From a virus (Duplodnaviria; Heunggongvirae; Uroviricota; Caudoviricetes): 64,000 nucleotides of DNA. Below the pieces are notes generated by a model. It made no database searches. It saw only the letters and a program-made list of their open reading frames with translations, and had not been told where the DNA came from. Shown here in pieces: positions 1,832 to 49,333 of this stretch (its first letter is position 1; each line of letters opens with the position of its first letter). The translations under genes were made by a program, and so were the position numbers. The stretch lies in IMG/VR virus record IMGVR_UViG_3300029305_011675; one strand, written 5' to 3'.

Positions 1832-3637
1832 ATGAAGTTTAACATAAAATCAAAGAAAGGCTTCACCTTAATCGAGTTACTTGTGGTGATTGGCATTCTT
1901 GCAGTGCTTGCAGCAATTGCGATACCATCAGTAGCAGGTCTCATTGATAGAGCAAATGTATCTGCCGACAACAGCAATGCAACTGCTATGACAAATGCAA
2001 TTGAACAATTTACATCGGAGTTTGAATTAGTGAAGCAAGATATTGCATCAGGAGTTCTTGATGAGAATGACTTGGATGCAGTACAAGGTAGAATATTCAA
2101 CATTTTTGAAATTACGATGCGAAGTCAAGTTACTCACATTGAAAACGAGGATGGCATTAATGGATATGGTGTCAATATCAATACCAAGTATCCAGTAAAT
2201 GAGAAAACATTTAAGAGTGTAATCACACACTATTTGAAGACTGCATCTGACACCTTTATCCCAAAGCAAAGTGATAAAGCATTTTACTATTCACCCGAAA
2301 TTGGTATCGTTATCGTAGCAGAAGATGGTTCTACAACTGATGAACTGAATAAAATTGCATTGGTTGATGAAGACGGAGTAAGCATAAATAACAAAGGTTT
2401 TGTTACACTTTCGGTAACTCCACTTGCTGACGATATTGAAGATAATAACATTCAGTGGATTAACCTTACTCTCAATGCTTTGAATGAGAAGAGTGGCACT
2501 ACAATCACTAATGTTTATGTATCTACCGATACTAAAAATCAGTATACCACATTAAGAAAAGATGTGCTTGGTTATCAGGAATACGATAGCGAAGGTAGCG
2601 GTCTTTTCGTACCAGGAACTAATGAATATATTAAAATCAATGTGAATGGTAAGCAAGTTGATGCTACTTGGAAAAACTTAATCCGTGGCGATTACATACG
2701 CATTATAAGCGGTGAGTTAGAAAACGGTTCTAATGCTCGTTTAATGTCGGGCGAACTTGTTATTGGTCCAGAGATATCAGCTATCATAAGTAAAGCATGG
2801 AATTCTGGAAATGCATTCTTGCAATACTCAAATGTAACATCTATTGTGTTTAAGGAAGGAATCACAAATATTGGAAACTGGGCATTTCGAGAAGCACGTG
2901 CGCTCAAAACAGTAACTATACCAAGCACAGTCTCTTATATTGGTGGAGGCGCATTTGGAGCTTCATCTTTACAAACCATAAATCTTTCAGAAGATAATCC
3001 ATATTTTTCATTATACAATGGTGTACTTTACACCTCTGATTATTCAGAATTAATTAAGGTTCCTGCAATGGCAAACATTGTTGATTTAACATTGCACGAA
3101 AATACAAAGATTGTGAGAAATTATGCATGCACGAGTCAAAGCATAATTCAAAATGTATACTGCAATGAAAATTTAGAACAAATTGGGCAACAATCTTTCA
3201 CTGGTTGCTCACAGTTGAAAAATATATACATAAATGATAAGTGTAAGATAACATCTTGGGCACCTTTTAGGGGTTCAAATAATGTAATATTCCACATGAG
3301 TGAAAACCACCAATATAATACAGTGTATGATAATGCCATTTACGACAAAGATTTAACTACTATTTATGCTGCTGGAATACAATCCGATGGTATTTTGGAA
3401 ATTCCAGATGGTGTAGAGTATATTTATAACATGACCAACAGAACGATACACACAATAATTTTACCCAATAGTGTAAAAGACTTTAATACTCATGCAATGT
3501 ATGAATATGTAAAAAATATTTATTATGCAGGTTCGCAAGAAGAATTTGATGCAATTGATATTATTTTGACTGATGAAGAAGGAATATGTGAAGAAGTGCT
3601 ATCAAAAGCAAATATCATATATAATTATAACCCATAA
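1832..3637 (+). CDS. Type IV pilin-like protein 1 with C-terminal BspA-type leucine-rich repeats
   Basis: Prepilin motif KG|FTLIELLVVIGILAVLAAIAIP; LRR_5-like repeats (GITNIGNWAF, TIPSTVSYIGGGAF). Confidence 0.85.
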   Translation: MKFNIKSKKGFTLIELLVVIGILAVLAAIAIPSVAGLIDRANVSADNSNATAMTNAIEQFTSEFELVKQDIASGVLDENDLDAVQGRIFNIFEITMRSQVTHIENEDGINGYGVNINTKYPVNEKTFKSVITHYLKTASDTFIPKQSDKAFYYSPEIGIVIVAEDGSTTDELNKIALVDEDGVSINNKGFVTLSVTPLADDIEDNNIQWINLTLNALNEKSGTTITNVYVSTDTKNQYTTLRKDVLGYQEYDSEGSGLFVPGTNEYIKINVNGKQVDATWKNLIRGDYIRIISGELENGSNARLMSGELVIGPEISAIISKAWNSGNAFLQYSNVTSIVFKEGITNIGNWAFREARALKTVTIPSTVSYIGGGAFGASSLQTINLSEDNPYFSLYNGVLYTSDYSELIKVPAMANIVDLTLHENTKIVRNYACTSQSIIQNVYCNENLEQIGQQSFTGCSQLKNIYINDKCKITSWAPFRGSNNVIFHMSENHQYNTVYDNAIYDKDLTTIYAAGIQSDGILEIPDGVEYIYNMTNRTIHTIILPNSVKDFNTHAMYEYVKNIYYAGSQEEFDAIDIILTDEEGICEEVLSKANIIYNYNP

Positions 3638-38869: not shown

Positions 38870-38911
38870 GTATCGGGTTTAAGTGTTACCTGCCAAGGGG
38901 CGGAATTGAGA

Positions 38912-38954
38912 TGAGTTAAGTGTGTGAGGGGTTATGAAGAGGAGGGAGGGTGGA
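38912..38954 (+). repeat. G-rich element, copy 3
   Basis: TGAGTT...TGAGGGGTTATG shared with 37976. Confidence 0.55.
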
Positions 38955-39053
38955 TAACTTATAAGATTTGTCGAAATTTTCACAAATATCTTTGACAAAA
39001 AAAGAAATATCATCTATGCTACATTTAACACAAATGAAAGGAATGATTTTCTT

Positions 39054-40730
39054 ATGAAATTATTTAAATCAAAAGCGGGTTTTACTTTGATTGAATTACT
39101 CGTTGTAATTGGTATTTTAGCAGTGCTTGCTGCTATTGCTATTCCATCAGTCGCTGGTTTAATCGATAGAGCGAATGTCTCTGCTGATAAAACCAATAGT
39201 AACGAGATGACTAATGCAATTGAGAGGTTCACTTCGGAGTATGAACTCTATTGTCAAGATATTGCTTCTGGTGTAATTAAGTCTGGTCAAACATCGGACT
39301 TCGATAGTGCTCAAGGCAGAGTATATAATGTAACGAAAGTTACGGACAGAAATGGTATTTCCACATTAGAAAAAGATGCATCTGCAGGACCAAGCACTAC
39401 AGGTCCCGCAATTTACAGAGATACAAAATATCCCGTAAATGCAGAAACAGTGAAAGCCATCGTCGAAAATTACACAAAAACTTCTTCATCAACCTTTGAA
39501 CCAAAACAAAGCGATATGCATTTTTGGTACAGTCCTGCTTGTGGTGTTGTGGTAGTTGCTACACCAGAATCCAGTATTGCAGAGAAAAACGATTTAATCA
39601 TCTCTGGCATGGATGCGAAAGGTAGAGAACTTGATGACAGTGCTGAAATTTGGATTGACCTCACAAGTAGTATTAATAATGGTGAGCAAAGTGGGGGAAG
39701 CAACGATGACCCTTCCGCAATAAGTGCACAACCTGGATTATACGAAACAGGGTCAAACTATACAGTACTAATCAAAACTTGGGATGAACTCATCGCAGAC
39801 GGCATTATCCAAGAAACCGATGGTGTTATTAAAGGTGTGTCCGCCAAAAAAGCAGATTTAAATGGTGACCTTTACTTATCAACAACTGCAACAACCATTG
39901 GTTCTTGTGCATTCCAGAATTGGCAAGGCATAACGGGTGTTTATGTACCAGACAATATAACTACCGCAGAATCAATGGCCTTCCAAATGTGTTATTCGCT
40001 TACGAGTGTAAGACTTCCAAAAACACAAATTACTAATGGCAGATATATGTTCCTTGAATGCAAAGGTCTTATAGAAATTACAATTCCAGACGGTTGGACT
40101 TCCATACCATATGGTTTTTGCCAATATGCAAATAAATTAACAACAGCAAACCTTCCAAGCACATTAAAGACTATCGAGCAAAATGCATTTAATAGTTGTT
40201 CTAAATTAACAAATTTCACATTACCAGAAGGTCTTGAAAAAGTTGGAAGAGCCGCCTTCCATTATTGTTATGGCATCAAAAATCTTGTATTGCCAAGTAC
40301 ATTGAAAGTTGTAGAACCTTATGCATTCCAATCGTTAACTGGTCTCGAAAGTATGACAATGAAAAGTGCTATTGGAGACATTTCTTCTTGGACGAATTGC
40401 TCTTATTACGACCAACCATTTATGAATCCTTGCAACATGGTAACTTTAACTATTGACGAAAGTGTCACAACAATTCCTACAAATACTTTCGTATATGCAA
40501 GAAAAATCAAAACAATTTATATTCCATCAACAATGACACATATCGCCGATGGTGCATTCCATTTAGACGAATTTAATCCCTATAATTATGAAATTACCAT
40601 CCACTATGATGGAACAATCGAACAGTGGAATAGTATTGCTACGAACAAAATGTTCTCAACTAGAAATGGTGCAGACACATTAACTTGTACAGTAATTTGC
40701 ACAGACGGTGAAACAATTATGACCAAATAA
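39054..40730 (+). CDS. Type IV pilin-like protein 2 with BspA-type LRR C-terminus
   Basis: AG|FTLIELL prepilin motif; LPSTLKTIEQNAF repeats; promoter at 38992. Confidence 0.85.
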   Translation: MKLFKSKAGFTLIELLVVIGILAVLAAIAIPSVAGLIDRANVSADKTNSNEMTNAIERFTSEYELYCQDIASGVIKSGQTSDFDSAQGRVYNVTKVTDRNGISTLEKDASAGPSTTGPAIYRDTKYPVNAETVKAIVENYTKTSSSTFEPKQSDMHFWYSPACGVVVVATPESSIAEKNDLIISGMDAKGRELDDSAEIWIDLTSSINNGEQSGGSNDDPSAISAQPGLYETGSNYTVLIKTWDELIADGIIQETDGVIKGVSAKKADLNGDLYLSTTATTIGSCAFQNWQGITGVYVPDNITTAESMAFQMCYSLTSVRLPKTQITNGRYMFLECKGLIEITIPDGWTSIPYGFCQYANKLTTANLPSTLKTIEQNAFNSCSKLTNFTLPEGLEKVGRAAFHYCYGIKNLVLPSTLKVVEPYAFQSLTGLESMTMKSAIGDISSWTNCSYYDQPFMNPCNMVTLTIDESVTTIPTNTFVYARKIKTIYIPSTMTHIADGAFHLDEFNPYNYEITIHYDGTIEQWNSIATNKMFSTRNGADTLTCTVICTDGETIMTK

Positions 40731-40783
40731 CATATGTAATATTTCAATCAATATCTTTTAATTAAACGAAAGGATGATTTCAA

Positions 40784-42373
40784 ATGAAATTTAATGCAAA
40801 ATCCCGCAAAGGTTTTACTCTGATTGAACTCCTTGTAGTCATCGGCATTTTAGCAGTACTCGCTGCTATTGCAATCCCATCTGTTGCTGGTCTGATTGAC
40901 CGTGCAAATCAATCATCAGATGCCACAAACAGCAATGAAATGACGAATGCAATCGAGAGATTCGCATCAGAGTATGAACTCTACAAACAAGACATCGCAA
41001 GTGGCACACTCGATGTAAATAATTTAGATTCTGCACAAGGCAGAGTTTATAATGTAACCAAAGTTGTTGACCGTAATGGTATTACAAATTTGGAGAAAGA
41101 TACATCTGCTGGTCCAGAAACAACAGGCCCTGCAATTTATAGAGATACAAAATATCCTGTAAATGCAGAGACAGTTAAATTAATTATCCAAAACTACACA
41201 AAAACTTCCAGTTCTACATTTGAACCAAAACAAAGTGATATGCACTATTGGTATTCCCCAGAATGTGGTGTTGTAGTAGTTGCAACCCCCAATTCCTCCG
41301 TTGCAGAGAAAAATGATTTAATTATCTCTGGTATGGATGCAAAGGGTAATGCGCTTGTTGACGAAGGAGAAAATGTAACAATTTGGATTGATATCACAAT
41401 CAACATTACAATTAACGGTGGTGCTGGTGGTGAAGGTGGCGGAGAAGAACCTGTAACACCGCCTACTCCTGTGACTGCTGTAATTCCAAGTGGTGGTACA
41501 TATTATGTTGGTGTAGGTAGCGGAAATGTATCAAGTGCTTCTGAAGTTTTAAACGCTGGTGACAATTTCCCAGAAACTCCACAAAATGGAGATGTTTATG
41601 TTTACAACAAATACGAATACCGATACAACTATTATAGCAATATGTTTGGAACTTGGATTTCGAAAAACCAAGATGGTTGGGGTGTAATATATAAGAGCAC
41701 CGACACCATAGCACCAGATATGCTATTTGAAATTGCAGGTAAAAAAGTAAATAATCTTTCTGCGACATATTACACAAAGAAAATAACCAATACACCAGCA
41801 ATCCCAACAGATGTTATTAATATGGACTACACATTTGCATGCACAAATATCTCCACATATCCACAGTTAGAAAATTGCAACAAACTAACATCTATGGAAA
41901 AAACATTCTACCAATGCTATAATCTTTATGATGTATCTGGTTTAGTAATTCCTAAAAATGTCACAAAAATGGATTATACATTTGGAATGTCTAATGTGGA
42001 AAATATACCAGACTTTTCTAAAGCAACAAGTCTTACCACATTAAGTTATACATTCTTACAGTGCAAAAACCTCAAAACAGCAAACAATAGTGTATTGCCA
42101 CCCAATTTAACTGTTTTGTATTGTACTTTCCAACAATGCGAAAAACTCACAACTGCACCTGTAATTCATTCGAAAATTACATATATGCAACAAGCATTCT
42201 CTGGATGTTTATCTCTTACTGGCGAAATTCGCATTGAAGCAAATACAATGAGTGGTCAAAATTCTTTCTATCAAACAACAAAACCAATTGTGATTGTAAG
42301 CAATTTAAGTAATGATGTTTTAGAAAGTCTCTGTTCAGGTCAAAGTAATGTAACTTTCCAACAACCAAAATAA
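40784..42373 (+). CDS. Type IV pilin-like protein 3 with a different LRR-like C-terminus
   Basis: KG|FTLIELL; repeats of type IP..V..MDYTF..C. Confidence 0.85.
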   Translation: MKFNAKSRKGFTLIELLVVIGILAVLAAIAIPSVAGLIDRANQSSDATNSNEMTNAIERFASEYELYKQDIASGTLDVNNLDSAQGRVYNVTKVVDRNGITNLEKDTSAGPETTGPAIYRDTKYPVNAETVKLIIQNYTKTSSSTFEPKQSDMHYWYSPECGVVVVATPNSSVAEKNDLIISGMDAKGNALVDEGENVTIWIDITINITINGGAGGEGGGEEPVTPPTPVTAVIPSGGTYYVGVGSGNVSSASEVLNAGDNFPETPQNGDVYVYNKYEYRYNYYSNMFGTWISKNQDGWGVIYKSTDTIAPDMLFEIAGKKVNNLSATYYTKKITNTPAIPTDVINMDYTFACTNISTYPQLENCNKLTSMEKTFYQCYNLYDVSGLVIPKNVTKMDYTFGMSNVENIPDFSKATSLTTLSYTFLQCKNLKTANNSVLPPNLTVLYCTFQQCEKLTTAPVIHSKITYMQQAFSGCLSLTGEIRIEANTMSGQNSFYQTTKPIVIVSNLSNDVLESLCSGQSNVTFQQPK

Positions 42374-42390
42374 TCTATGTACGAATAACA

Positions 42391-42425
42391 AATAATGGCA
42401 TTCGAGAACGAATGCCATTATTTTT
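42391..42425 (+). terminator. Intrinsic terminator after pilin-like gene 3
   Basis: AATAATGGCATTCG/CGAATGCCATTATT + T-run. Confidence 0.85.
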
Positions 42426-42450
42426 ATAAAACATTTTTACTCGTTAAGTG

Positions 42451-42479
42451 TTGACAAAGTCGTTTTAATATGATATAAT
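42451..42479 (+). promoter_or_regulatory. Consensus sigmaA promoter of the RT cassette
   Basis: TTGACA-17 nt-TATAAT with extended -10 TG. Confidence 0.85.
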
Positions 42480-42485
42480 AAAAGT

Positions 42486-42673
42486 AGAACAAAAAATGTT
42501 CCTATATCGTTATTTTCAAATGCATAGCACCTGCGACGAACACAGCATCAAATGGAATAATATTGTGCAGGTAATATTTTGATGTACGGTTCAGTATCAA
42601 ATAAATTTGATTTTAAATTCTTTGAAAATAACTACAAAAGTGCCTGCAGTTCGTAGCAGGCACTTATCTTTTT
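42486..42673 (+). ncRNA. Putative RT-associated structured RNA or leader
   Basis: Perfect 12-bp inverted repeat 42509-42520/42621-42632; 10-bp hairpin 42638-42665; alternative pairing 42530-42541/42649-42660. Confidence 0.6.
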
Positions 42674-42686
42674 AGGAGGAAATCAA

Positions 42687-43874
42687 ATGAGCATTATAGA
42701 GTTGTTAAAAAACGAAAATGTTTGGTATGATTTTTTACAATATAAAATTGACGGTGGACACCTACCTAAACGAGACCAAGAAAGATTAGAAGACTATATA
42801 AAAAATAGAGAATACGAACCCGTTGTCGAAGATATTATAGAAGGAAAGCAATTTGCAATTCCAACTATAAAACACATAAACAAGAAAAATTCCACAAAAA
42901 AGAGAACCGTTTTCTTATTTGACGAAAAGGAAAATTTTGTATTAAAAGCACTTATGTTTCTTCTCTATAAATATGACAATATCTTTTCACCAAATTTATA
43001 TTCTTTTAGACAAAATATAAGTGTAAAAACAGCAATTGCCGATATTACCAAAAAAGATATTAAAAATATGTATGGGTACAAGGTAGATATTCATAATTAT
43101 TTCAACTCTGTTGATACAGAAATTATGACTAAAATTTTGCACGACAAAATAAAAGACGATGAGTCATTAGTTAATTTTATTATTTCAATTATTTCAGAAT
43201 CAAAAACTTGGTTCAATGGCAAAATGATAAATTGCGAGAAAGGAATTATGGCAGGCATCCCTATTTCTGGTTTTCTTGCCAATCTTTATCTCGAAGGACT
43301 CGACAGATGGTTTTATGAGCAAGGTATTTTATATGCAAGATATTCAGACGATATTATTGTTTTTGGAGAAACAAAGGAAAAGGTCGATGAGTACAAAAAT
43401 GTTATTAAACAATTTCTAACAAGTCGAAACCTGACTATCAATGAAAGCAAAGAGTTTGAGATAGAGCCAAACGGAAAATTAGACTTCTTGGGTTTCTCTT
43501 TTGTAGATGATAAAATTGATTTGTCCGATGTTGCTTTGAAAAAAATGAAAGACAAAATGAAACGAAAAGCAAAAGCACTTGTTCGTTGGAAGATAAGAAA
43601 CAAGGCAAGCGACGAAAGAGCAATTCGTGCATACATCAAACATTTCAATAAGAAGTTTTTTGACAACCTAAAGAACAATGAAATAACTTGGTGCAGATGG
43701 TATTTTCCAATTATTACAACCGATAATTCGTTGCATATATTGGATGACTATATGTTACAAAACATTCGTTATATTGCCACAGGAAAGCATACAAAGGCAA
43801 ATTATAACCTAAAATATGAAACCATAAAAGAATATGGTTTTAAAAGTTTGGTACATGCTTATTATAATTTTTAG
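42687..43874 (+). CDS. Reverse transcriptase, unclassified (not retron, DGR or group II intron by motifs)
   Basis: KVDIHNYFNSVD, GIMAGIPISGFLANLYL, YARYSDD and DFLGF motifs; AGGAGG RBS. Confidence 0.92.
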   Translation: MSIIELLKNENVWYDFLQYKIDGGHLPKRDQERLEDYIKNREYEPVVEDIIEGKQFAIPTIKHINKKNSTKKRTVFLFDEKENFVLKALMFLLYKYDNIFSPNLYSFRQNISVKTAIADITKKDIKNMYGYKVDIHNYFNSVDTEIMTKILHDKIKDDESLVNFIISIISESKTWFNGKMINCEKGIMAGIPISGFLANLYLEGLDRWFYEQGILYARYSDDIIVFGETKEKVDEYKNVIKQFLTSRNLTINESKEFEIEPNGKLDFLGFSFVDDKIDLSDVALKKMKDKMKRKAKALVRWKIRNKASDERAIRAYIKHFNKKFFDNLKNNEITWCRWYFPIITTDNSLHILDDYMLQNIRYIATGKHTKANYNLKYETIKEYGFKSLVHAYYNF

Positions 43875-43882
43875 TAGAATGC

Positions 43883-43912
43883 AAAACCGTCCATTATTAA
43901 TGGGCGGTTTTT
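43883..43912 (+). terminator. Intrinsic terminator after the RT
   Basis: AAAACCGTCCATTA/TAATGGGCGGTTTT. Confidence 0.8.
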
Positions 43913-43994
43913 ACATATATTTTTAAAATATCTTTGACAAGGAAAATAAAATCATCTATAATGATTTTATCACAAAAGAAAGGAATGATTTCTT

Positions 43995-45425
43995 ATGAAA
44001 TTTAATGCAAAATCTCGTAAAGGTTTCACACTAATTGAACTTTTAGTAGTGATTGGCATTCTCGCAGTTCTCGCCGCAATTGCTATTCCTTCGGTAGCAG
44101 GTTTAATTGACCGTGCGAACCAGTCATCCGACAACACAAATGCAAAAGAGATGACAAATGCCATCGAGCGCTTCACTTCTGAATACGAACTCTATTGTCA
44201 GGATGTAGCATCTGGCACATTAGATGTAACAGACCTTGATTCTGCACAAGGAAGAGTTTTCAATGTAACGGAGATTGAAACTCGCAAAGGTGTAGAGATG
44301 ACCGAAAACCTCGGTTATACACACGACATCGTTGCAGTTGACAGAGATACAAAGTATCCAGTTAACGAAGTTACTGCAAAAAAGGTTATCGAAAACTTTA
44401 TGAAGACAAGTTCTTCTACCTTTGAACCAAAGCAGAGTGACTGCAGTTATTACTATTCCCCACAGGTTGGTAAAGTAGTTGTTGCGAAAACTGGCAGTAC
44501 CATTGCAGAATTAAATAAAATTGCTATGGAAGACGAAGTAGAATATGCAACAATTAACAATGGAGAAATCATTGAATGGATTAACCTCTCCGTGAATGCA
44601 GGGAAAGAAGTAAATGATTGGACTTATGTTAATGCAGCAACCCCAACGAACAATCAGTATAAAGAATTAGGTACAAAAGCACCTACTTTCAATATTGAGT
44701 GGAGCGCAAAGAACGAAGCAACTGGTCAACCAGTTACGGTTGGTGTTTCCATTTCTAATTCAAATTATTCTGGTAATGGTACAACCCCTTGTACGATGAC
44801 GAATGTCCCAATGGGCAAATATGCATTGGTAGCAACTTATGCTGGTAATGAGTACAAATTCAACTTGCTTGTTTACCAAGAAGGAATTCAAACATTCAAG
44901 TTAACAATTCCAGGAACTAATATTTCTGTTGGTTCTGATAACGATACATATGTGCCAAGTGGTACTCCTAACACCCCTAACACTCCTGATACTCCCAATG
45001 TACCAACACCATCGATAAAATCCTTTAACATCATTACTGTCGATAAAACAATCCAGTATCAATACGAAGAAGGAATGACATGGCGTCAATGGATTGTTTC
45101 TGATTATAACGATGGCATATTGTTTGTAAAGGAAAGTGGAACAGCACCTGGCATACCACAAACCTTTAGACCTGTACCAGATGGTGTTCTTGCAACTAGT
45201 GTTGGTTATGCTAGAAACAATTCTTCTGTACAAACAGCAGATGCAAGAACCGACTACCAAACAATATTATTTGGAATATATGATACAGGACTTGGCGGAG
45301 GAGCATTTGTGTGCCATCCAGATGATGTAATAAATGGGTCAACACATGAATATGATATGTACTCATATTCCGAATCGGTTTCTAATTTTTCAGGGTATTA
45401 TCTTGTAGAGATTTGGGATGATTAA
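43995..45425 (+). CDS. Type IV pilin-like protein 4 with non-LRR beta-rich C-terminus
   Basis: KG|FTLIELL; TPNTPNTPDTP linker; promoter at 43934. Confidence 0.85.
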   Translation: MKFNAKSRKGFTLIELLVVIGILAVLAAIAIPSVAGLIDRANQSSDNTNAKEMTNAIERFTSEYELYCQDVASGTLDVTDLDSAQGRVFNVTEIETRKGVEMTENLGYTHDIVAVDRDTKYPVNEVTAKKVIENFMKTSSSTFEPKQSDCSYYYSPQVGKVVVAKTGSTIAELNKIAMEDEVEYATINNGEIIEWINLSVNAGKEVNDWTYVNAATPTNNQYKELGTKAPTFNIEWSAKNEATGQPVTVGVSISNSNYSGNGTTPCTMTNVPMGKYALVATYAGNEYKFNLLVYQEGIQTFKLTIPGTNISVGSDNDTYVPSGTPNTPNTPDTPNVPTPSIKSFNIITVDKTIQYQYEEGMTWRQWIVSDYNDGILFVKESGTAPGIPQTFRPVPDGVLATSVGYARNNSSVQTADARTDYQTILFGIYDTGLGGGAFVCHPDDVINGSTHEYDMYSYSESVSNFSGYYLVEIWDD

Positions 45426-45474
45426 TATTTATTCTCAAAAACAAAAACTCTTCGCATAATGCGAAGAGTTTTTA

Positions 45475-46203
45475 TTATTTTTTCAATCTATTTTTTGCAA
45501 CATCAAAATGTTTTTGTTCCAACTCAATACCAATAAAATCCCTATTAGTATTTTGACAAGCAACACCAGTACTGCCAGAACCCATACAACTATCTAAAAC
45601 AGTTTCTCCCTCATTAGTATAGGTTTTGATAAGGAATTCAAGCAAAGCGACTGGTTTCTGTGTGTCATGTAAGTTGCAAGTAAGGCAATCTCTTTGATAT
45701 CTCAACACTTGTGTAGGATATCGCCAACCAGTATCATTATACTCATAAGGTTTCTTTTCGTCTTCGTCAACAAGTTTTCCGAGTTTACCATTTTTAACTT
45801 TATTTGTTCTTTTTGGACCTTCATATTTAATCATTTGAGGATTGTATGTAGGTTGCTTTTTATAAAACATACTAATAACTTCAATAGTTTTGCCAGCACG
45901 ACGTTTCACCTGCGAAATATTCGTAAGTCGTTCTTTTTCCCAATACCAATCAAACTTAAAGTTTTCAATATTGCTTGCTCGCAAAAGAGAAGAAAAAGGC
46001 TCTTGTCCAAATATTGCAATAGCACCATTGTCTTTAATTATTCTATTATATTGTTCCCACATTTTATCAAATGGAATGATAACATCCCAAGGACATTTTG
46101 TAGTCCCATAAGGAGGGTCTACCAAGATAAAATCAACAGATTTATCTGGTATTTGTTTCATTATTTCAAGACAATCGCCTTGGTAGATTTCGATATTGGA
46201 CAT
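45475..46203 (-). CDS. Beta-class N6A/N4C DNA methyltransferase
   Basis: DPPYG, HDTQKPVALL and DSCMGSGSTG motifs. Confidence 0.9.
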   Translation of the reverse strand: MSNIEIYQGDCLEIMKQIPDKSVDFILVDPPYGTTKCPWDVIIPFDKMWEQYNRIIKDNGAIAIFGQEPFSSLLRASNIENFKFDWYWEKERLTNISQVKRRAGKTIEVISMFYKKQPTYNPQMIKYEGPKRTNKVKNGKLGKLVDEDEKKPYEYNDTGWRYPTQVLRYQRDCLTCNLHDTQKPVALLEFLIKTYTNEGETVLDSCMGSGSTGVACQNTNRDFIGIELEQKHFDVAKNRLKK

Positions 46204-46304
46204 TTTATTACCTCTTTTTTGTATTTCTATTGACATTGGTTTTCTTTTGTTTTATAATAGTATATAATAAAAAATTAACATTGTCAATTAATAGGAGGAC
46301 CAAT

Positions 46305-46682
46305 ATGTATATTGCATTTAATTGTTTAGATTTTTTTAGGAAAGGCGAATTTTTCGTTCATAAAAGCAAAAAGGAATGCCCAGAAGGGATGAAGGTTGTT
46401 AGAGTTTCTAAACCTTGTTATCTCGAAGTTAAATTTGGACATCACGAACAAATCGGGACATTTTCTCGTCAAGTTCACAAAATCAAAGAAAATAAAATTG
46501 ATGTTTATAAATGGGGTGCAAGTTTTTGCAATGCTCCCGATGATTTTTCTTCTGAATATGAAGACGATGGAGATGATGGTTATAGATTTATCACTTTTGA
46601 CAATCTTGGTCTCCCATTCTATTGTAGAACAATTCATATCACAAAAGAAATTCTAAATCAAAAGAAAGAAGTGACTTCATAA
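46305..46682 (+). CDS. Hypothetical protein
   Basis: AGGAGG RBS before ATG 46305. Confidence 0.65.
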   Translation: MYIAFNCLDFFRKGEFFVHKSKKECPEGMKVVRVSKPCYLEVKFGHHEQIGTFSRQVHKIKENKIDVYKWGASFCNAPDDFSSEYEDDGDDGYRFITFDNLGLPFYCRTIHITKEILNQKKEVTS

Positions 46683-47894
46683 ATGCAAATAATAGATTTG
46701 TTTGCTGGTTGCGGTGGTTTAAGCACTGGATTTGAGCAGGCGGGTTTTAATATTTCATTGGCAGTTGAAAAAGATTTAGGTGCAACAGAAACTTATAAGT
46801 TTAATCACCCAAACACACAACTTTTAGTAGAAGATATTACCAAATTAAACAATATAACACAATATATCGACAAACCAATTGATGGTGTAATAGGAAGTCC
46901 TCCATGCCAATCATTTTCCTTATCTGGCAACCGAAACCCCAAAGACCCACGAGGTTCTTTATTTATGGACTTTATGAGAATAACTCGTGAAGTTAATGCA
47001 AATTTTTTTGTTATGGAAAACGTAACAGGAATGTTGTCGATGAAAACAGCAAAAGGCGAAAAATATATTGATGTTATTCTCAACGAAATGACAAATAGTG
47101 GATACAATGTTGCTCATTTTGTATTAAATGCGGCAGAATTTGGAGTTCCGCAAAGTAGAAAAAGATTGTTTTTTATTGGTATAAGAAAAGATTTACCTTT
47201 TGACGCAAACTCATTAGAACCAAAAGGTTTTCTATTTGGAGATGACCAAATAACAATAGAACAAGCAATTATGGACTTACCACAAATAAACGCTTGTGAA
47301 GGAGCAGAACAGCAAAATTATAATTGTCTTCCACAAAATGAGTTCCAGAAATATTGTAGGCAAAATAGCGATTATGTTTATAATCATATTGCAATGAAGC
47401 ACACAAAACGTTTAGTGGAAAGATTCAATCAAATTAAATTCGGTCAATCTGTTGCTGATGTACCAGACGAATTTGGTCAAAGAAAAAGAGGAGATGCCTC
47501 TAAATTAAGTGGTAAAAAATATGCCCAAAACAATTTCAGACCGTTTCCGAACAAACCTTCTCCAACAATTCCCGCAAGTTTTCAAAGCAATTTTGTGCAT
47601 CCATTCTTAAACAGGAATTATACTGCACGAGAAGGGGCAAGACTTCAATCTTTCCCCGATACATATATTTTTAAAGGAAACAGAACCAATATGTCTTGGG
47701 AAAAGAACCTATCCCAATACCAACAGATTGGAAATGCAGTCCCACCTCTATTAGCAAAGGCAATTGCAGACACCATACAAAACTACGTGAACCTCACACG
47801 ACTAAAGTCGCGTGCTTCTCCGCTTGTTATTTACAGAGACTCTCTATCTACAGATACGACGCAAAATTCAGGAGAAAAGAACCGAAGTTCTTAA
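46683..47894 (+). CDS. C5-cytosine DNA methyltransferase; last codons replaced by read-through into TnpB element 2
   Basis: DLFAGCGG, PPCQSFS, ENV, QSRKR, RLQSFPD and GNAVPP motifs. Confidence 0.92.
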   Translation: MQIIDLFAGCGGLSTGFEQAGFNISLAVEKDLGATETYKFNHPNTQLLVEDITKLNNITQYIDKPIDGVIGSPPCQSFSLSGNRNPKDPRGSLFMDFMRITREVNANFFVMENVTGMLSMKTAKGEKYIDVILNEMTNSGYNVAHFVLNAAEFGVPQSRKRLFFIGIRKDLPFDANSLEPKGFLFGDDQITIEQAIMDLPQINACEGAEQQNYNCLPQNEFQKYCRQNSDYVYNHIAMKHTKRLVERFNQIKFGQSVADVPDEFGQRKRGDASKLSGKKYAQNNFRPFPNKPSPTIPASFQSNFVHPFLNRNYTAREGARLQSFPDTYIFKGNRTNMSWEKNLSQYQQIGNAVPPLLAKAIADTIQNYVNLTRLKSRASPLVIYRDSLSTDTTQNSGEKNRSS

Positions 47895-49333
47895 ACCCGC
47901 ATTAAGGTTAATTAGTGTAGACAAAGTGCATTGGGTTCTTTTCGCAACAGAAGGAACTTTTGCCTCCAGTTGCGACCTTACCGTTGCCGACAAGGGTTTT
48001 AGTATTTCTCTTATAAAATATCGTGCTCCGATATTATAAGATGCATTTAAATCACTGTGGTATTGTTTACCATTACCGAGAGTGCAGATACTATAATTAT
48101 CTTTCTCTCGTTTTACTTCACCACTACCATCGAATGATAGTTTGCTTGTATTCCAAGCACAGATGTGCGAAATGCGAATTCCCATTCGATGTGCTTTGCT
48201 TGTAACAATACCCTGAATATAGTTTTTTCTCCACATTGTAAGTTTTTGTTTCTTACTGCCAGAGATTTTGCCATTGATATCAAGATGCTCAAAAACGATA
48301 CAATGTACAGCGTTTTGAACAGCACAATCTACTATTGCTTGTGCAATTTTAATAGAATGCTGTTCATTACAGTTCTTGGCATAACTCCACAGTTTAGAAA
48401 CAGATTGATGTTTCTTCTGTTTCTTTTTAATCTTATTCAGTGTATGATACAGACGGTCTTTATCACTCGCAAAGTTGATAAACTTTCTATTGAGGACAGT
48501 TCCGTCCGCAGTCATTACCGAACAAACTGCATCGTTATTGATACCAAGGTCAACTGCTAATACTTTTTGGTTTTCTGCTTTTACTTCATTCAGTTTGACC
48601 TTTTCAGTAAAAGCAAATCTCAAATAGTATTTATTATATCTTCTCTCCAAAATTGGAGCAGACATCTCTTTATTTTGACAATACTTCCGAATATACTTAA
48701 TATCCGTAGCACGAAGATGCACTGGATACCAAACCCAATCATTGTTAATATAAAGTTTTAGATTAACAATGTTAGGATTATCCGTTTCTTCATAAGTATT
48801 ATCTCTATAGAAAATTGGACAACTATAATGTTTGGTCTGCAATCTTGGTGGTTTGCCAATCTTGCCATTCTTTTCCCAATTTTCATAGTTGCTTCTATAA
48901 GAAGATACAATGCCGATTGCATCGGCAATGACTCCTCTACGAAAGTAACTTGGCATTTTGTAAAACAATTGGTCGAACTCTGGGTATTTTGCCTCATTAT
49001 CCTTTGTCGTATGGATAAGATGTTCAACCAAATTATTTTTGCGATTGCCTTTTAGTGCAGAAATACTATCCCACTCATTATTTATAATGGGGATTAAGAA
49101 AGTGAGTGCTTCTCTATATTTATTTACGGTTGGTTTTAACATTTTGTTAATACCAACAATTTGAACCTTATAACTCGTAGTTATGTTCATTCTTTAATAA
49201 GCACTTCCTTTCTGTTTAAGATAGATATATTATAACATATTTTCTTAACAATTGCAACCTTTTTATTTAAGAATAATAAGAAACATCGCCTTACTCACGA
49301 CTAAAGTCACGAGAATGCGGCGATGTTGTTTTA
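47787..49333 (-). mobile_element. IS200/IS605 family non-autonomous element (tnpB only), copy 2
   Basis: Same ends as copy 1; excision restores the MTase end NY-FKNI-stop. Confidence 0.88.
47868..49190 (-). CDS. tnpB: TnpB RNA-guided nuclease
   Basis: RuvC D-E-D intact; highly similar but not identical to copy 1. Confidence 0.88.
   Translation of the reverse strand: MNITTSYKVQIVGINKMLKPTVNKYREALTFLIPIINNEWDSISALKGNRKNNLVEHLIHTTKDNEAKYPEFDQLFYKMPSYFRRGVIADAIGIVSSYRSNYENWEKNGKIGKPPRLQTKHYSCPIFYRDNTYEETDNPNIVNLKLYINNDWVWYPVHLRATDIKYIRKYCQNKEMSAPILERRYNKYYLRFAFTEKVKLNEVKAENQKVLAVDLGINNDAVCSVMTADGTVLNRKFINFASDKDRLYHTLNKIKKKQKKHQSVSKLWSYAKNCNEQHSIKIAQAIVDCAVQNAVHCIVFEHLDINGKISGSKKQKLTMWRKNYIQGIVTSKAHRMGIRISHICAWNTSKLSFDGSGEVKREKDNYSICTLGNGKQYHSDLNASYNIGARYFIREILKPLSATVRSQLEAKVPSVAKRTQCTLSTLINLNAGLRTSVLFS

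What the first reader, a model, noticed from the sequence alone, without database searches (positions are those of the whole stretch)
42451..43912. Self-contained cassette of structured leader RNA plus atypical reverse transcriptase inside the pilin cluster
Seen: the cassette has its own consensus promoter, a ~200-nt non-coding leader, a 395-aa RT (YSDD) and its own terminator, and it lies between pilin-like genes 3 and 4. The RT has GIMAG instead of the usual PQG. It lacks the retron NAxxH/VTG motifs and the DGR SQ motif, and there is no avd, cas1, intron domain V or effector gene. The leader has a retron a1/a2-like perfect 12-bp inverted repeat (GTTATTTTCAAA/TTTGAAAATAAC). Known: several defence-associated RTs (DRT2, DRT9) are single-gene systems with an upstream ncRNA template. 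Inference: an uncharacterised RT-ncRNA system making a defined cDNA, for defence, inter-element competition or possibly pilin diversification.
Basis: partly seen in the sequence, partly recalled or inferred. Interest (0 to 1): 0.85.

Follow-up and report, generated by a model that had tools for sequence, protein, structure and literature searches.

The report
UG26 reverse transcriptase with RT-5 RNA
This is a real, self-contained pair of a small reverse transcriptase and its own knotted non-coding RNA, but both parts are already catalogued (UG26 enzymes, Rfam RT-5 RNA), their function is still untested, and the neighbouring pilin genes are there by accident.

Summary
Window 42451-43912 carries a perfect promoter, a structured leader of about 200 nt, a 395-aa reverse transcriptase (RT) with YSDD, and terminator hairpins.

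The parts are not new. The RT is a full-length member of PADLOC group RT_UG26 (E 2.9e-157), which belongs to Class 2 of the UG/Abi RTs. The leader core is Rfam RF03026, "RT-5 RNA" (74 bits against a gathering score of 45.7).

In 76 further UG26 loci from gut Clostridia the same RNA sits once, upstream of the RT. Its structure covaries strongly.

The pilin link is local:
- No prepilin ORF lies near the RT in any of 80 other loci.
- A sister strain (95% nt identity) lacks the two upstream pilin genes.
- No template/variable repeat pair exists.

No paper in the searched library tests UG26. The defence-island signal is weak (my neighbour scan), and Mestre 2022 called it inconclusive.

My best model is inferred. 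The RT binds the RT-5 RNA and copies its variable P5 hairpin region into cDNA, as characterised Class 2 relatives do. The likely purpose is antiviral.

This scan found the same UG26/RT-5 pair four times before on other DNA. Verdict: a new member of a known but uncharacterised kind.

The parts
42451..42479 (+). Promoter of the ncRNA/RT unit (TTGACA, 17-nt spacer, TG-extended TATAAT)
   Evidence: 12 of 12 matches. The promoter is retained in relatives L081, L085 and L086, whose homology to the window begins at 42434-42446.
42484..42505 (+). Small, weak 5' hairpin ahead of the conserved RNA. I did not test its conservation.
   Evidence: -3.4 kcal/mol
42509..42632 (+). RT-5 ncRNA in its extended form, closed by helix P1. 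Helices: P1 42509-42520 / 42621-42632; pseudoknot 42529-42534 / 42567-42572; P2 42538-42541 / 42589-42592; P3 42545-42552 / 42578-42585; P4 42561-42564 / 42573-42576; P5 42596-42601 / 42606-42611.
   Evidence: Rfam RF03026 core at 42525-42625, 74 bits against gathering 45.7. My own covariance model R1 scores 108 bits at 42504-42645.
42612..42620 (+). Conserved single-stranded joiner (TTTAAATTC) between P5 and the 3' arm of P1. Candidate start site of the template (inferred).
   Evidence: Consensus TTaAa is conserved in 70-90% or more of 68 distinct sequences. The 3-5 nt after it are complementary to the 3' arm of P5.
42638..42673 (+). Intrinsic terminator between the ncRNA and the RT start (10-bp stem, 6 GC pairs, T-run)
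   Evidence: -18.1 kcal/mol, z = -5.4. A terminator-like signal at the RNA's 3' end is present in 59 of 67 distinct loci.
42674..42679 (+). Ribosome-binding site AGGAGG, 7 nt before the ATG
   Evidence: read directly from the sequence
42687..43874 (+). UG26 reverse transcriptase, 395 aa (P0001). Catalytic residues D134 and Y219-S-D-D222; family motif KGIMAG at 185-190.
   Evidence: PADLOC RT_UG26 E 2.9e-157, model positions 1-394 of 398. Pfam RVT_1. AlphaFold2 model pLDDT 88.8. Invariant residues.
43883..43911 (+). Terminator-like hairpin after the RT gene
   Evidence: -16.8 kcal/mol, z = -5.6

Best explanation
The cassette is a two-part module: a UG26-group reverse transcriptase (Class 2 of the UG/Abi family) and its cognate non-coding RNA, Rfam RT-5.

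Shown:
- The RNA has its own strong promoter.
- It folds into a compact pseudoknotted body closed by a 12-bp stem.
- It is followed by an intrinsic terminator directly before the RT's ribosome-binding site.
- RNA and RT travel together as one unit of about 1.45 kb that sits at unrelated chromosomal sites in related bacteria.

Inferred:
- Most transcripts stop at the terminator and give a free ncRNA. Read-through gives a little RT mRNA.
- The RT binds the conserved part of the RNA (pseudoknot, P2-P4) as a scaffold.
- The RT reverse-transcribes the adjacent variable part, starting in the conserved UUUAA joiner and running through hairpin P5. The product is either a short hairpin cDNA or a repeated cDNA.
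- This follows what the characterised Class 2 relatives do: DRT2, DRT9, DRT10 and UG27.

The biological role is most likely defence against phages or other mobile elements, but that is the weakest step. The position between pilin operons is incidental.
For: Identity:
- RT_UG26 521 bits against 126 bits for the next model.
- RT-5 above its gathering score here and in 18 of 20 further UG26 loci.

Pairing of RNA and RT:
- My covariance model finds exactly one copy per locus, upstream and on the same strand. It hit 77 of 81 sources. Three of the four misses are cut by a contig end, and there are no hits elsewhere in 1 Mb.

Structure:
- 88.5% of cells are paired against 70% in shuffles, and 38 of 40 pairs show compensatory changes.
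- The pseudoknot is paired in 100% of 68 distinct sequences although it was not part of the model.

Discrete RNA:
- Terminator at 42638-42665.
- A terminator signal at the RNA's 3' end in 59 of 67 distinct loci.

Mobility:
- Relatives with 73-96% RT identity lie in six different contexts, and homology stops at about 42434 and 43870.

Mechanism by analogy:
- Class 2 UG RTs use neighbouring ncRNAs as templates (10.1101/2025.10.16.682844).
- UG27, which also has YSDD, copies the variable central hairpin between conserved motifs (10.64898/2026.09.22.753630).
- In RT-5, P5 is the only hypervariable element. Its loop ranges from 2 to about 60 nt and it is flanked by conserved GU and UUUAA.

Host-encoded:
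- 306 loci in species genomes against 1 distant hit in IMG/VR.
Against: - No experiment on UG26 exists in the searched library. cDNA synthesis, the template and the primer are all inferred.
- The defence link is weak. Of 113 immediate neighbours of 60 RT clusters, only about 7-8 hit defence models and most are housekeeping genes. I had no matched control.
- Mestre 2022 rated UG26 'inconclusive' for defence and found two other Class 2 groups (UG4, UG27) not enriched.
- P5 in this window is only 6 bp with a 4-nt loop, so a hairpin cDNA would be very short.
- The structure search does not separate UG26 from group II intron RTs (TM 0.76) or from DRT9 (about 0.6).
- No effector gene is present here. 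The optional COG2852 partner found in 24 of 80 loci is absent.
Confidence: 0.6

Rival explanations
1. Retron-like system. The closing stem P1 acts as the a1/a2 repeat. The conserved G in the AAnGC motif just after the 5' arm supplies a 2'-OH primer. The RT then copies the 3' part (joiner and P5) into a branched msDNA-like molecule that holds a toxin or sensor in check.
For: The order of elements matches a retron ncRNA. This comparison rests on established retron anatomy recalled from knowledge, not on a test here. The order is: closing repeat, conserved G-containing motif, conserved stem-loops, variable hairpin, closing repeat. P1 is 12 bp and covaries. The RT is small and stands alone.
Against: The retron RT model NF038233 scores 63 bits against a cut-off of 235. 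The retron RT motifs NAxxH and VTG are absent. PADLOC places the RT in UG26, not among retron RTs. No Rfam retron msr family matched. No effector gene is adjacent. The characterised Class 2 UG RTs DRT9 and DRT10 prime from a protein residue.
Confidence: 0.12
2. Telomerase/DRT10-like or DRT9-like repeat synthesis. The RT repeatedly copies a short segment of the U-rich joiner (UUUAAA...UUU) and makes long tandem-repeat or homopolymer-like DNA, primed from a C-terminal tyrosine (candidates Y377 and Y393).
For: Class 2 relatives DRT9 and DRT10 work this way. The joiner is single-stranded, conserved and U-rich. The 3-5 nt after UUUAA repeat the start of P5's 5' arm, an A-B-A' like pattern: mean helix 3.75 against 3.16 +/- 0.10 when permuted, 0 of 500 permutations as high. 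The C-terminal tail has invariant Y377 and near-invariant Y373 and Y393.
Against: The A/A' signal is small and can equally be read as an alternative RNA hairpin. Relatedness of the sequences inflates it. Some clades pair that segment with the P5 loop or with the 5' flank instead. The first U-run is missing in several clades (GUGAAA variants). PADLOC scores to Drt9 and UG17 are only about 90-103 bits.
Confidence: 0.15
3. Pilin diversification or regulation. The RT makes cDNA that recombines into, or controls, the flanking pilin/LRR adhesin genes.
For: The cassette lies between pilin paralogues with constant N-termini and variable C-termini. In one relative (L083) LRR_5 genes also flank the RT.
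Against: No prepilin-motif ORF lies within 8 kb of the RT in any of 80 other UG26 loci. No repeat links the cassette to a pilin gene beyond a 25-nt, 76% AT-rich match. There is no Avd gene. Strain L085 has the cassette but not pilins 2 and 3. The cassette has its own promoter and terminators and is bounded by the pilin operon's terminator and the next pilin promoter.
Confidence: 0.02
4. A degenerate remnant of a group II intron or another retroelement whose RT gene survives without function.
For: The closest fold is the group II intron RT GsI-IIC (TM 0.76). TIGR04416 gives a partial hit (117 bits). One source annotates a homologue as 'group II intron RT domain-containing protein'.
Against: The TIGR04416 cut-off is 300. 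No intron ribozyme RNA was found. The ORF is intact with all catalytic residues invariant across more than 3000 homologues. A dedicated, covarying ncRNA is conserved with it. These are signs of purifying selection on a working RNA-protein pair.
Confidence: 0.03

Closest known systems
UG26 group of Class 2 UG/Abi reverse transcriptases (Mestre et al. 2022, PMC9226505; PADLOC model PDLC03764 RT_UG26)
   Same: Full-length match at E 2.9e-157. About 400 aa with no fused domain. Firmicute hosts. In other loci it is sometimes accompanied by the COG2852-type protein described for the group.
   Different: Nothing essential differs. This copy lacks the optional COG2852 partner. The 2022 description (35 members) reported no ncRNA for UG26. 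Here the RT-5 RNA is seen in 76 of the 77 other loci that keep enough upstream sequence.
Rfam RF03026, RT-5 RNA motif (Weinberg et al. 2017, PMC5737381)
   Same: Whole-model match (positions 1-104) above the gathering score, upstream of an RT gene.
   Different: The Rfam hit covers 42525-42625 only. The RNA here and in its relatives extends outward into a covarying closing stem of about 12 bp, and it ends in a terminator. The 2017 paper only guessed that its 19 RT motifs belong to retrons or DGRs.
UG27 systems (Class 2; bioRxiv 10.64898/2026.09.22.753630)
   Same: A small YSDD reverse transcriptase from gut bacteria. Its structured ncRNA has a variable hairpin between conserved motifs, and that hairpin is copied into short ssDNA. 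PADLOC UG27 is among the next-best hits (102 bits).
   Different: UG27 is prophage-borne, has arrays of ncRNA units, and needs two accessory proteins. UG26 has one RNA unit upstream of the RT, is nearly absent from viral contigs, and usually stands alone.
DRT2, DRT9 and DRT10 (characterised Class 2 defence RTs)
   Same: A single RT plus an adjacent, highly structured and pseudoknotted ncRNA. The ncRNA is probably far more abundant than the RT mRNA.
   Different: These are separate HMM families: Drt2 68.6 bits against a cut-off of 390, and Drt9 90 bits. A DRT2-style never-ending ORF is absent (7-11 of 65). There is no long poly-U tract as in DRT9 and no SLATT effector as in DRT10.
Retrons
   Same: The RNA is closed by an inverted repeat like a1/a2. 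The order is conserved scaffold, then variable hairpin. The RT is compact and lies immediately downstream.
   Different: The RT fails the retron HMM cut-off and lacks the NAxxH and VTG motifs. No effector gene is present. The RNA has a pseudoknot that, as far as I recall, is not part of retron msr.

Membership tests
UG26 (Class 2 UG/Abi RT) | Full-length match to the group's profile, well above matches to other RT groups | tested here: met
   PADLOC RT_UG26 521.5 bits, residues 1-394 on model positions 1-394 of 398. The next model scores 126 bits.
UG26 (Class 2 UG/Abi RT) | Class 2 architecture: an RT of about 400 aa with no additional known domain | tested here: met
   Only RVT_1 (residues 64-271) in Pfam. 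395 aa. A confident single-chain AlphaFold2 model with an RT-like fold.
UG26 (Class 2 UG/Abi RT) | Intact catalytic residues (motif A Asp, YxDD) | tested here: met
   D134 and Y219-S220-D221-D222 are invariant in 26 homologues of 51-96% identity.
UG26 (Class 2 UG/Abi RT) | Optional COG2852 (Vsr-like) accessory protein, seen in 9 of 35 members in Mestre 2022 | tested here: not met
   Present in 24 of 80 related loci (PADLOC RTasCOG2852). There is no homologue in the window. The feature is optional, so its absence does not exclude membership.
Rfam RF03026 RT-5 RNA | Covariance-model score at or above the gathering score, over the full model | tested here: met
   74.0 bits against 45.7, model positions 1-104 of 104, E 6.6e-14.
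Rfam RF03026 RT-5 RNA | Conserved secondary structure supported by covariation, next to an RT gene | tested here: met
   38 of 40 pairs show compensatory changes, and the pseudoknot is 100% paired. The RNA is always upstream of the RT on the same strand.
Defence-associated RT (DRT) system | Experimentally shown protection against phage | not testable with these tools
   No paper on UG26 function was found. Mestre 2022 calls UG26 inconclusive.
Defence-associated RT (DRT) system | Enrichment next to known defence genes | tested here: inconclusive
   About 7-8 of 113 immediate neighbours hit PADLOC models at 1e-8, and the rest are mostly housekeeping genes. There was no matched control. In this window two Type II methyltransferases lie 1.6-2.8 kb downstream.
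Retron | RT belongs to the retron RT family (HMM cut-off; NAxxH and VTG motifs) | tested here: not met
   NF038233 scores 63.2 bits against a cut-off of 235. The motifs are absent from P0001.
Retron | ncRNA closed by a1/a2 inverted repeats with a branching G | tested here: inconclusive
   The 12-bp closing stem and the conserved AAnGC after it are present. Branching cannot be tested, and no Rfam retron RNA matched.
Diversity-generating retroelement | Template/variable repeat pair (TR/VR) and an Avd accessory gene | tested here: not met
   No TR/VR-like repeat in 38900-45600. The neighbours are pilins and methyltransferases.
Group II intron | Intron RT/maturase HMM cut-off and ribozyme domains flanking the ORF | tested here: not met
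   TIGR04416 scores 117 bits against a cut-off of 300. No intron RNA family was found in 41500-45000 at E up to 5.
DRT2 | Drt2 HMM cut-off, and an ncRNA loop that gives a stop-free concatemeric ORF | tested here: not met
   NF041746 scores 68.6 bits against 390. A stop-free concatemer occurs in only 7-11 of 65 RNAs, and loop length is a multiple of 3 in 20 of 65.

The most novel reading that the evidence does not exclude
The UG26/RT-5 pair would be a non-retron RT that uses a retron-like RNA layout: closing stem, conserved G motif, conserved pseudoknotted scaffold, then a hypervariable 'payload' hairpin. It would make a defined short hairpin or repeat cDNA from the P5/joiner segment. That would be a further distinct product type among Class 2 UG RTs, and a possible bridge between retron and UG ncRNA architectures. 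With over 300 host species in animal guts, it would be a widespread, untested cDNA-producing system.
Probability: 0.3. Interest if true: 0.6.

Novelty: new member of a known kind. Interest (0 to 1): 0.3.

Why it matters
UG26 is one of the Class 2 UG reverse transcriptase groups whose product and role are still unknown. Every Class 2 group studied so far (DRT2, DRT9, DRT10, UG27) turned out to make a different, unexpected kind of DNA.

This locus is a clean, minimal example of about 1.45 kb: promoter, RNA, terminator and RT, with no accessory gene. That makes it a convenient construct for finding the UG26 product.

The analysis adds three things to the catalogue entries:
- RT-5 is the cognate RNA of UG26 almost without exception.
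- The RNA extends beyond the Rfam core into a covarying closing stem and a terminator.
- The module is chromosomal, solitary and mobile, rather than phage-borne or confined to defence islands.

It removes the more exciting pilin-diversification idea.

Tried and rejected
- DGR-like pilin diversification: no TR/VR repeat, no pilin linkage in 80 loci, and a strain polymorphism that removes pilins 2 and 3. Rejected.
- DRT2-style hidden never-ending ORF in the P1-enclosed loop: not conserved. Rejected.
- Retron, group II intron, Drt2, Drt3a, Drt4 and Drt5 membership: all below their curated cut-offs.
- Defence-island test on immediate neighbours: few defence hits and no control, so inconclusive.
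- Sequence search of solved structures and Foldseek against the PDB: only generic RT relatives (group II intron RT, DRT9, G2L4). This did not discriminate between mechanisms. The tool returns no coordinates, so I could not ask which C-terminal tyrosine approaches the active site.
- The window's whole genome is not held, so I could not look for further copies or for the host's identity.
- Viral collection: only one distant (27%) hit, so a phage-borne origin is not supported.
- One contig of a close relative (P0010) could not be fetched as DNA.
- Two malformed literature look-ups returned errors and were repeated correctly.
Full report
**What is there.** The region reads as the first-stage reader described.
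- A perfect sigma-70-type promoter with a TG extension lies at 42451-42479.
- It is followed by about 200 nt of non-coding sequence and an ORF at 42687-43874 of 395 aa.
- The ORF has a strong ribosome-binding site (AGGAGG, 42674-42679) and a stable hairpin after it at 43883-43911.
- The leader folds better than every one of 200 shuffles (z = -3.7).
- The 12-bp perfect inverted repeat is at 42509-42520 and 42621-42632.
- A second, strong intrinsic terminator (42638-42665 plus a T-run) lies inside the cassette, between the structured RNA and the RT's ribosome-binding site.

**What the protein is.**
- Pfam sees only RVT_1.
- PADLOC gives a full-length match to RT_UG26 (E 2.9e-157, 521 bits, residues 1-394 on 1-394 of 398). 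The next model scores 126 bits. UG4, UG17, UG27 and Drt9 score about 90-103 bits.
- NCBIfam models for group II intron maturase, Drt2, Drt3a, Drt4, Drt5 and retron St85 RT all hit far below their curated cut-offs.
- UG26 is a named group of Class 2 UG/Abi RTs. These are RTs without further domains. The group had 35 members in 2022, and 9 of them sat next to a COG2852 protein (PMC9226505).
D134 and YSDD are invariant too. So it is the family's signature, not decay.
- The AlphaFold2 model is confident (pLDDT 88.8). It resembles group II intron RTs most (TM 0.76), then DRT9 and G2L4. This does not decide the mechanism.

**What the leader is.**
- Rfam matches 42525-42625 to RF03026 'RT-5 RNA' over the whole model (74 bits, gathering 45.7).
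- RT-5 is one of 19 'RT motifs' found near RT genes by Weinberg et al. 2017. They offered only the guess that such motifs belong to retrons or DGRs (PMC5737381).
- I fetched 80 UG26 loci, the best 80 of 306 that encode a relative of the query in GTDB species genomes. All come from gut and rumen Clostridia and relatives.
- A covariance model built from 36 leaders finds exactly one copy per locus in 77 of 81 sources. The copy is always upstream of the RT on the same strand, with no other hit in 1 Mb. Three of the four misses are cut by a contig end.
- Rfam's own model scores above gathering in 18 of 20 further loci.

**Structure of the RNA.**
- On a plain MAFFT alignment the pseudoknot is paired in 216 of 216 cells. 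In the window it joins ACCTGC at 42529-42534 with GCAGGT at 42567-42572.
- On the 68 distinct model-aligned sequences the pseudoknot is again 100% paired, with compensatory changes at all six pairs. It was not part of the model.
- Overall 88.5% of cells pair against 70% in shuffles and 40-47% for slid partners. 38 of 40 pairs show double changes.
It closes the whole RNA and covaries freely, for example AACAGAGAGAAA with TTTCTCTCTGTT and GCAAGGGAAA with TTTCCCTTGC.
- The Rfam model does not include P1.
- The RNA's 3' end carries a terminator signal in 59 of 67 distinct loci. In 40 it is a U-run directly after P1. In 20 it is a separate hairpin, as in this window.

**Surroundings and the pilin question.**
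- The window is a 35% GC chromosome segment with pyruvate kinase and NAD-dependent ligase.
- It has four pilin paralogues with near-identical N-termini, starting at 1832, 39054, 40784 and 43995.
- The cassette sits between the terminator of the pilin 2-3 operon (42390-42423) and the promoter of pilin 4 (43934-43962). That promoter is a copy of the one before pilin 2.
- Nothing ties the cassette to the pilins:
  - No TR/VR-like repeat exists.
  - No prepilin-motif ORF lies within 8 kb of the RT in any of the 80 other loci.
  - Relatives of 73-81% RT identity lie among unrelated genes: peptidase M50 and gyrA, CpXC and LRR_5 proteins, TrkA and a type I-E CRISPR-Cas locus, and others.
- Homology of these relatives to the window runs only from about 42434-42514 to about 43870. 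That delimits a mobile unit of promoter, RNA, terminator and RT.
- In contig L085 (95% nt identity) the cassette directly follows the equivalent of window 38944. So the 3.5-kb block with pilins 2 and 3 is absent there. The upstream pilin flank is a strain-level polymorphism.

**Function.**
- The searched library holds no experimental work on UG26. Mestre 2022 rated its defence association inconclusive.
- My own look at the nearest gene on each side of 60 RT clusters (113 proteins) found mostly housekeeping genes. About 7-8 were defence-model hits: AbiO, Nhi, mad2/6, PD-T4-6, LmuA, MkoA and RTasMBL. I had no matched control, so this is inconclusive. It does show that UG26 is usually a solitary insertion, not an island resident.
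- UG26 is nearly absent from IMG/VR: 1 distant hit against 306 loci in host genomes. So it is host-borne.
- In this window two Type II methyltransferases and a TnpB-like gene lie just beyond pilin 4.

**Mechanism (inferred).**
- Class 2 UG RTs studied so far all use an adjacent ncRNA as template. DRT2 does rolling-circle synthesis of a gene. DRT9 makes poly-dA from a U tract. DRT10 makes telomerase-like repeats. DRT9 and DRT10 prime from a protein residue. UG27 copies the variable central hairpin of its RNA, between conserved motifs, into short ssDNA.
- In RT-5, the pseudoknot and P2-P4 are conserved in sequence. P5 is hypervariable in sequence and length (loop of 2 to about 60 nt). It is bracketed by conserved GU and UUUAA.
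- I therefore take P2-P4 and the pseudoknot as the RT-binding scaffold, and the joiner plus P5 as the template.
- The order of elements also mirrors a retron ncRNA: closing repeat, conserved G motif, conserved stem-loops, variable hairpin, closing repeat. So a 2'-OH-primed product cannot be excluded, although the RT is not a retron RT.
- A DRT2-like never-ending ORF is not conserved.
- One small extra signal remains unexplained. The 3-5 nt after UUUAA are complementary to the 3' arm of P5, so they repeat the start of its 5' arm more than permuted controls do (3.75 against 3.16 +/- 0.10). This could be an alternative hairpin or a re-alignment site.

**Verdict.** The interpretation as an RT-ncRNA system is right. 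However, the system is a typical member of two catalogued entries (UG26 and RT-5), and the pilin connection is incidental. Earlier reports of this scan reached the same identification on four other genomes, and I re-derived it independently here. Novelty: a new member of a known, functionally uncharacterised kind. Interest is modest.

Noticed in passing
window 1832-3637, 39054-40730, 40784-42373, 43995-45425; L085:1-2789: Four large pilin paralogues share an almost identical prepilin N-terminus of about 45 aa. The C-terminal parts differ, with LRR_5/BspA repeats in two of them. The promoter region before pilin 2 (38984-39049) is repeated before pilin 4 (43926-43991). A 95%-identical strain lacks the whole pilin 2-3 block (38945-42442).
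   Followed up: partly
window 21734-23056 (-) and 47868-49190 (-): Two 440-aa TnpB-like ORFs (weak OrfB_IS605 plus Cas12f1-like TNB hits). They are probably copies of one IS200/IS605-type element. One lies 4 kb downstream of the RT.
   Followed up: no
window 45475-46236 (-), 46230-46682 (+), 46683-47894 (+): An N4/N6 methyltransferase and a C5 Type II methyltransferase flank a 150-aa ORF with no family hit. This may be a restriction-modification unit without an identified endonuclease.
   Followed up: no
window 27143-28366 (-): A 407-aa protein with a C-terminal PARP catalytic domain (Pfam E 2.2e-23). It has no PADLOC hit.
   Followed up: no
RT-5 RNA, window 42606-42620; alignment A4: The 3-5 nt after the conserved UUUAA are complementary to the 3' arm of hairpin P5, so they repeat the start of its 5' arm. 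In L055 and L064 they pair with the P5 loop instead. In L050 and L053 they pair with the 5' flank of P5. This could be an alternative hairpin, a tertiary contact, or an A-B-A' re-alignment site.
   Followed up: partly
L014, L020, L021, L022, L028 (e.g. L021:7387-7995): In five loci a 202-aa SAP_new25 + DUF6434 protein is encoded between the RT-5 RNA and the UG26 RT, so the RNA lies about 620-650 nt upstream of the RT. This accessory gene differs from the COG2852 type.
   Followed up: partly
L072:644-1159 and 23 other loci: A 171-aa protein (PADLOC RTasCOG2852, no Pfam hit) ends a few nt before the RT-5 RNA in 24 of 80 loci. Those loci usually lack a separate promoter for the RNA.
   Followed up: partly
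L087:7660-12192: In one relative (78% nt identity over the cassette) the UG26 cassette lies 2.5 kb from type I-E CRISPR-Cas genes (Cse1, Cas5, others).
   Followed up: no
L081:6018-8786: The gyrA homologue next to a related UG26 cassette carries an intein (Intein_splicing between two DNA_topoisoIV hits).
   Followed up: no
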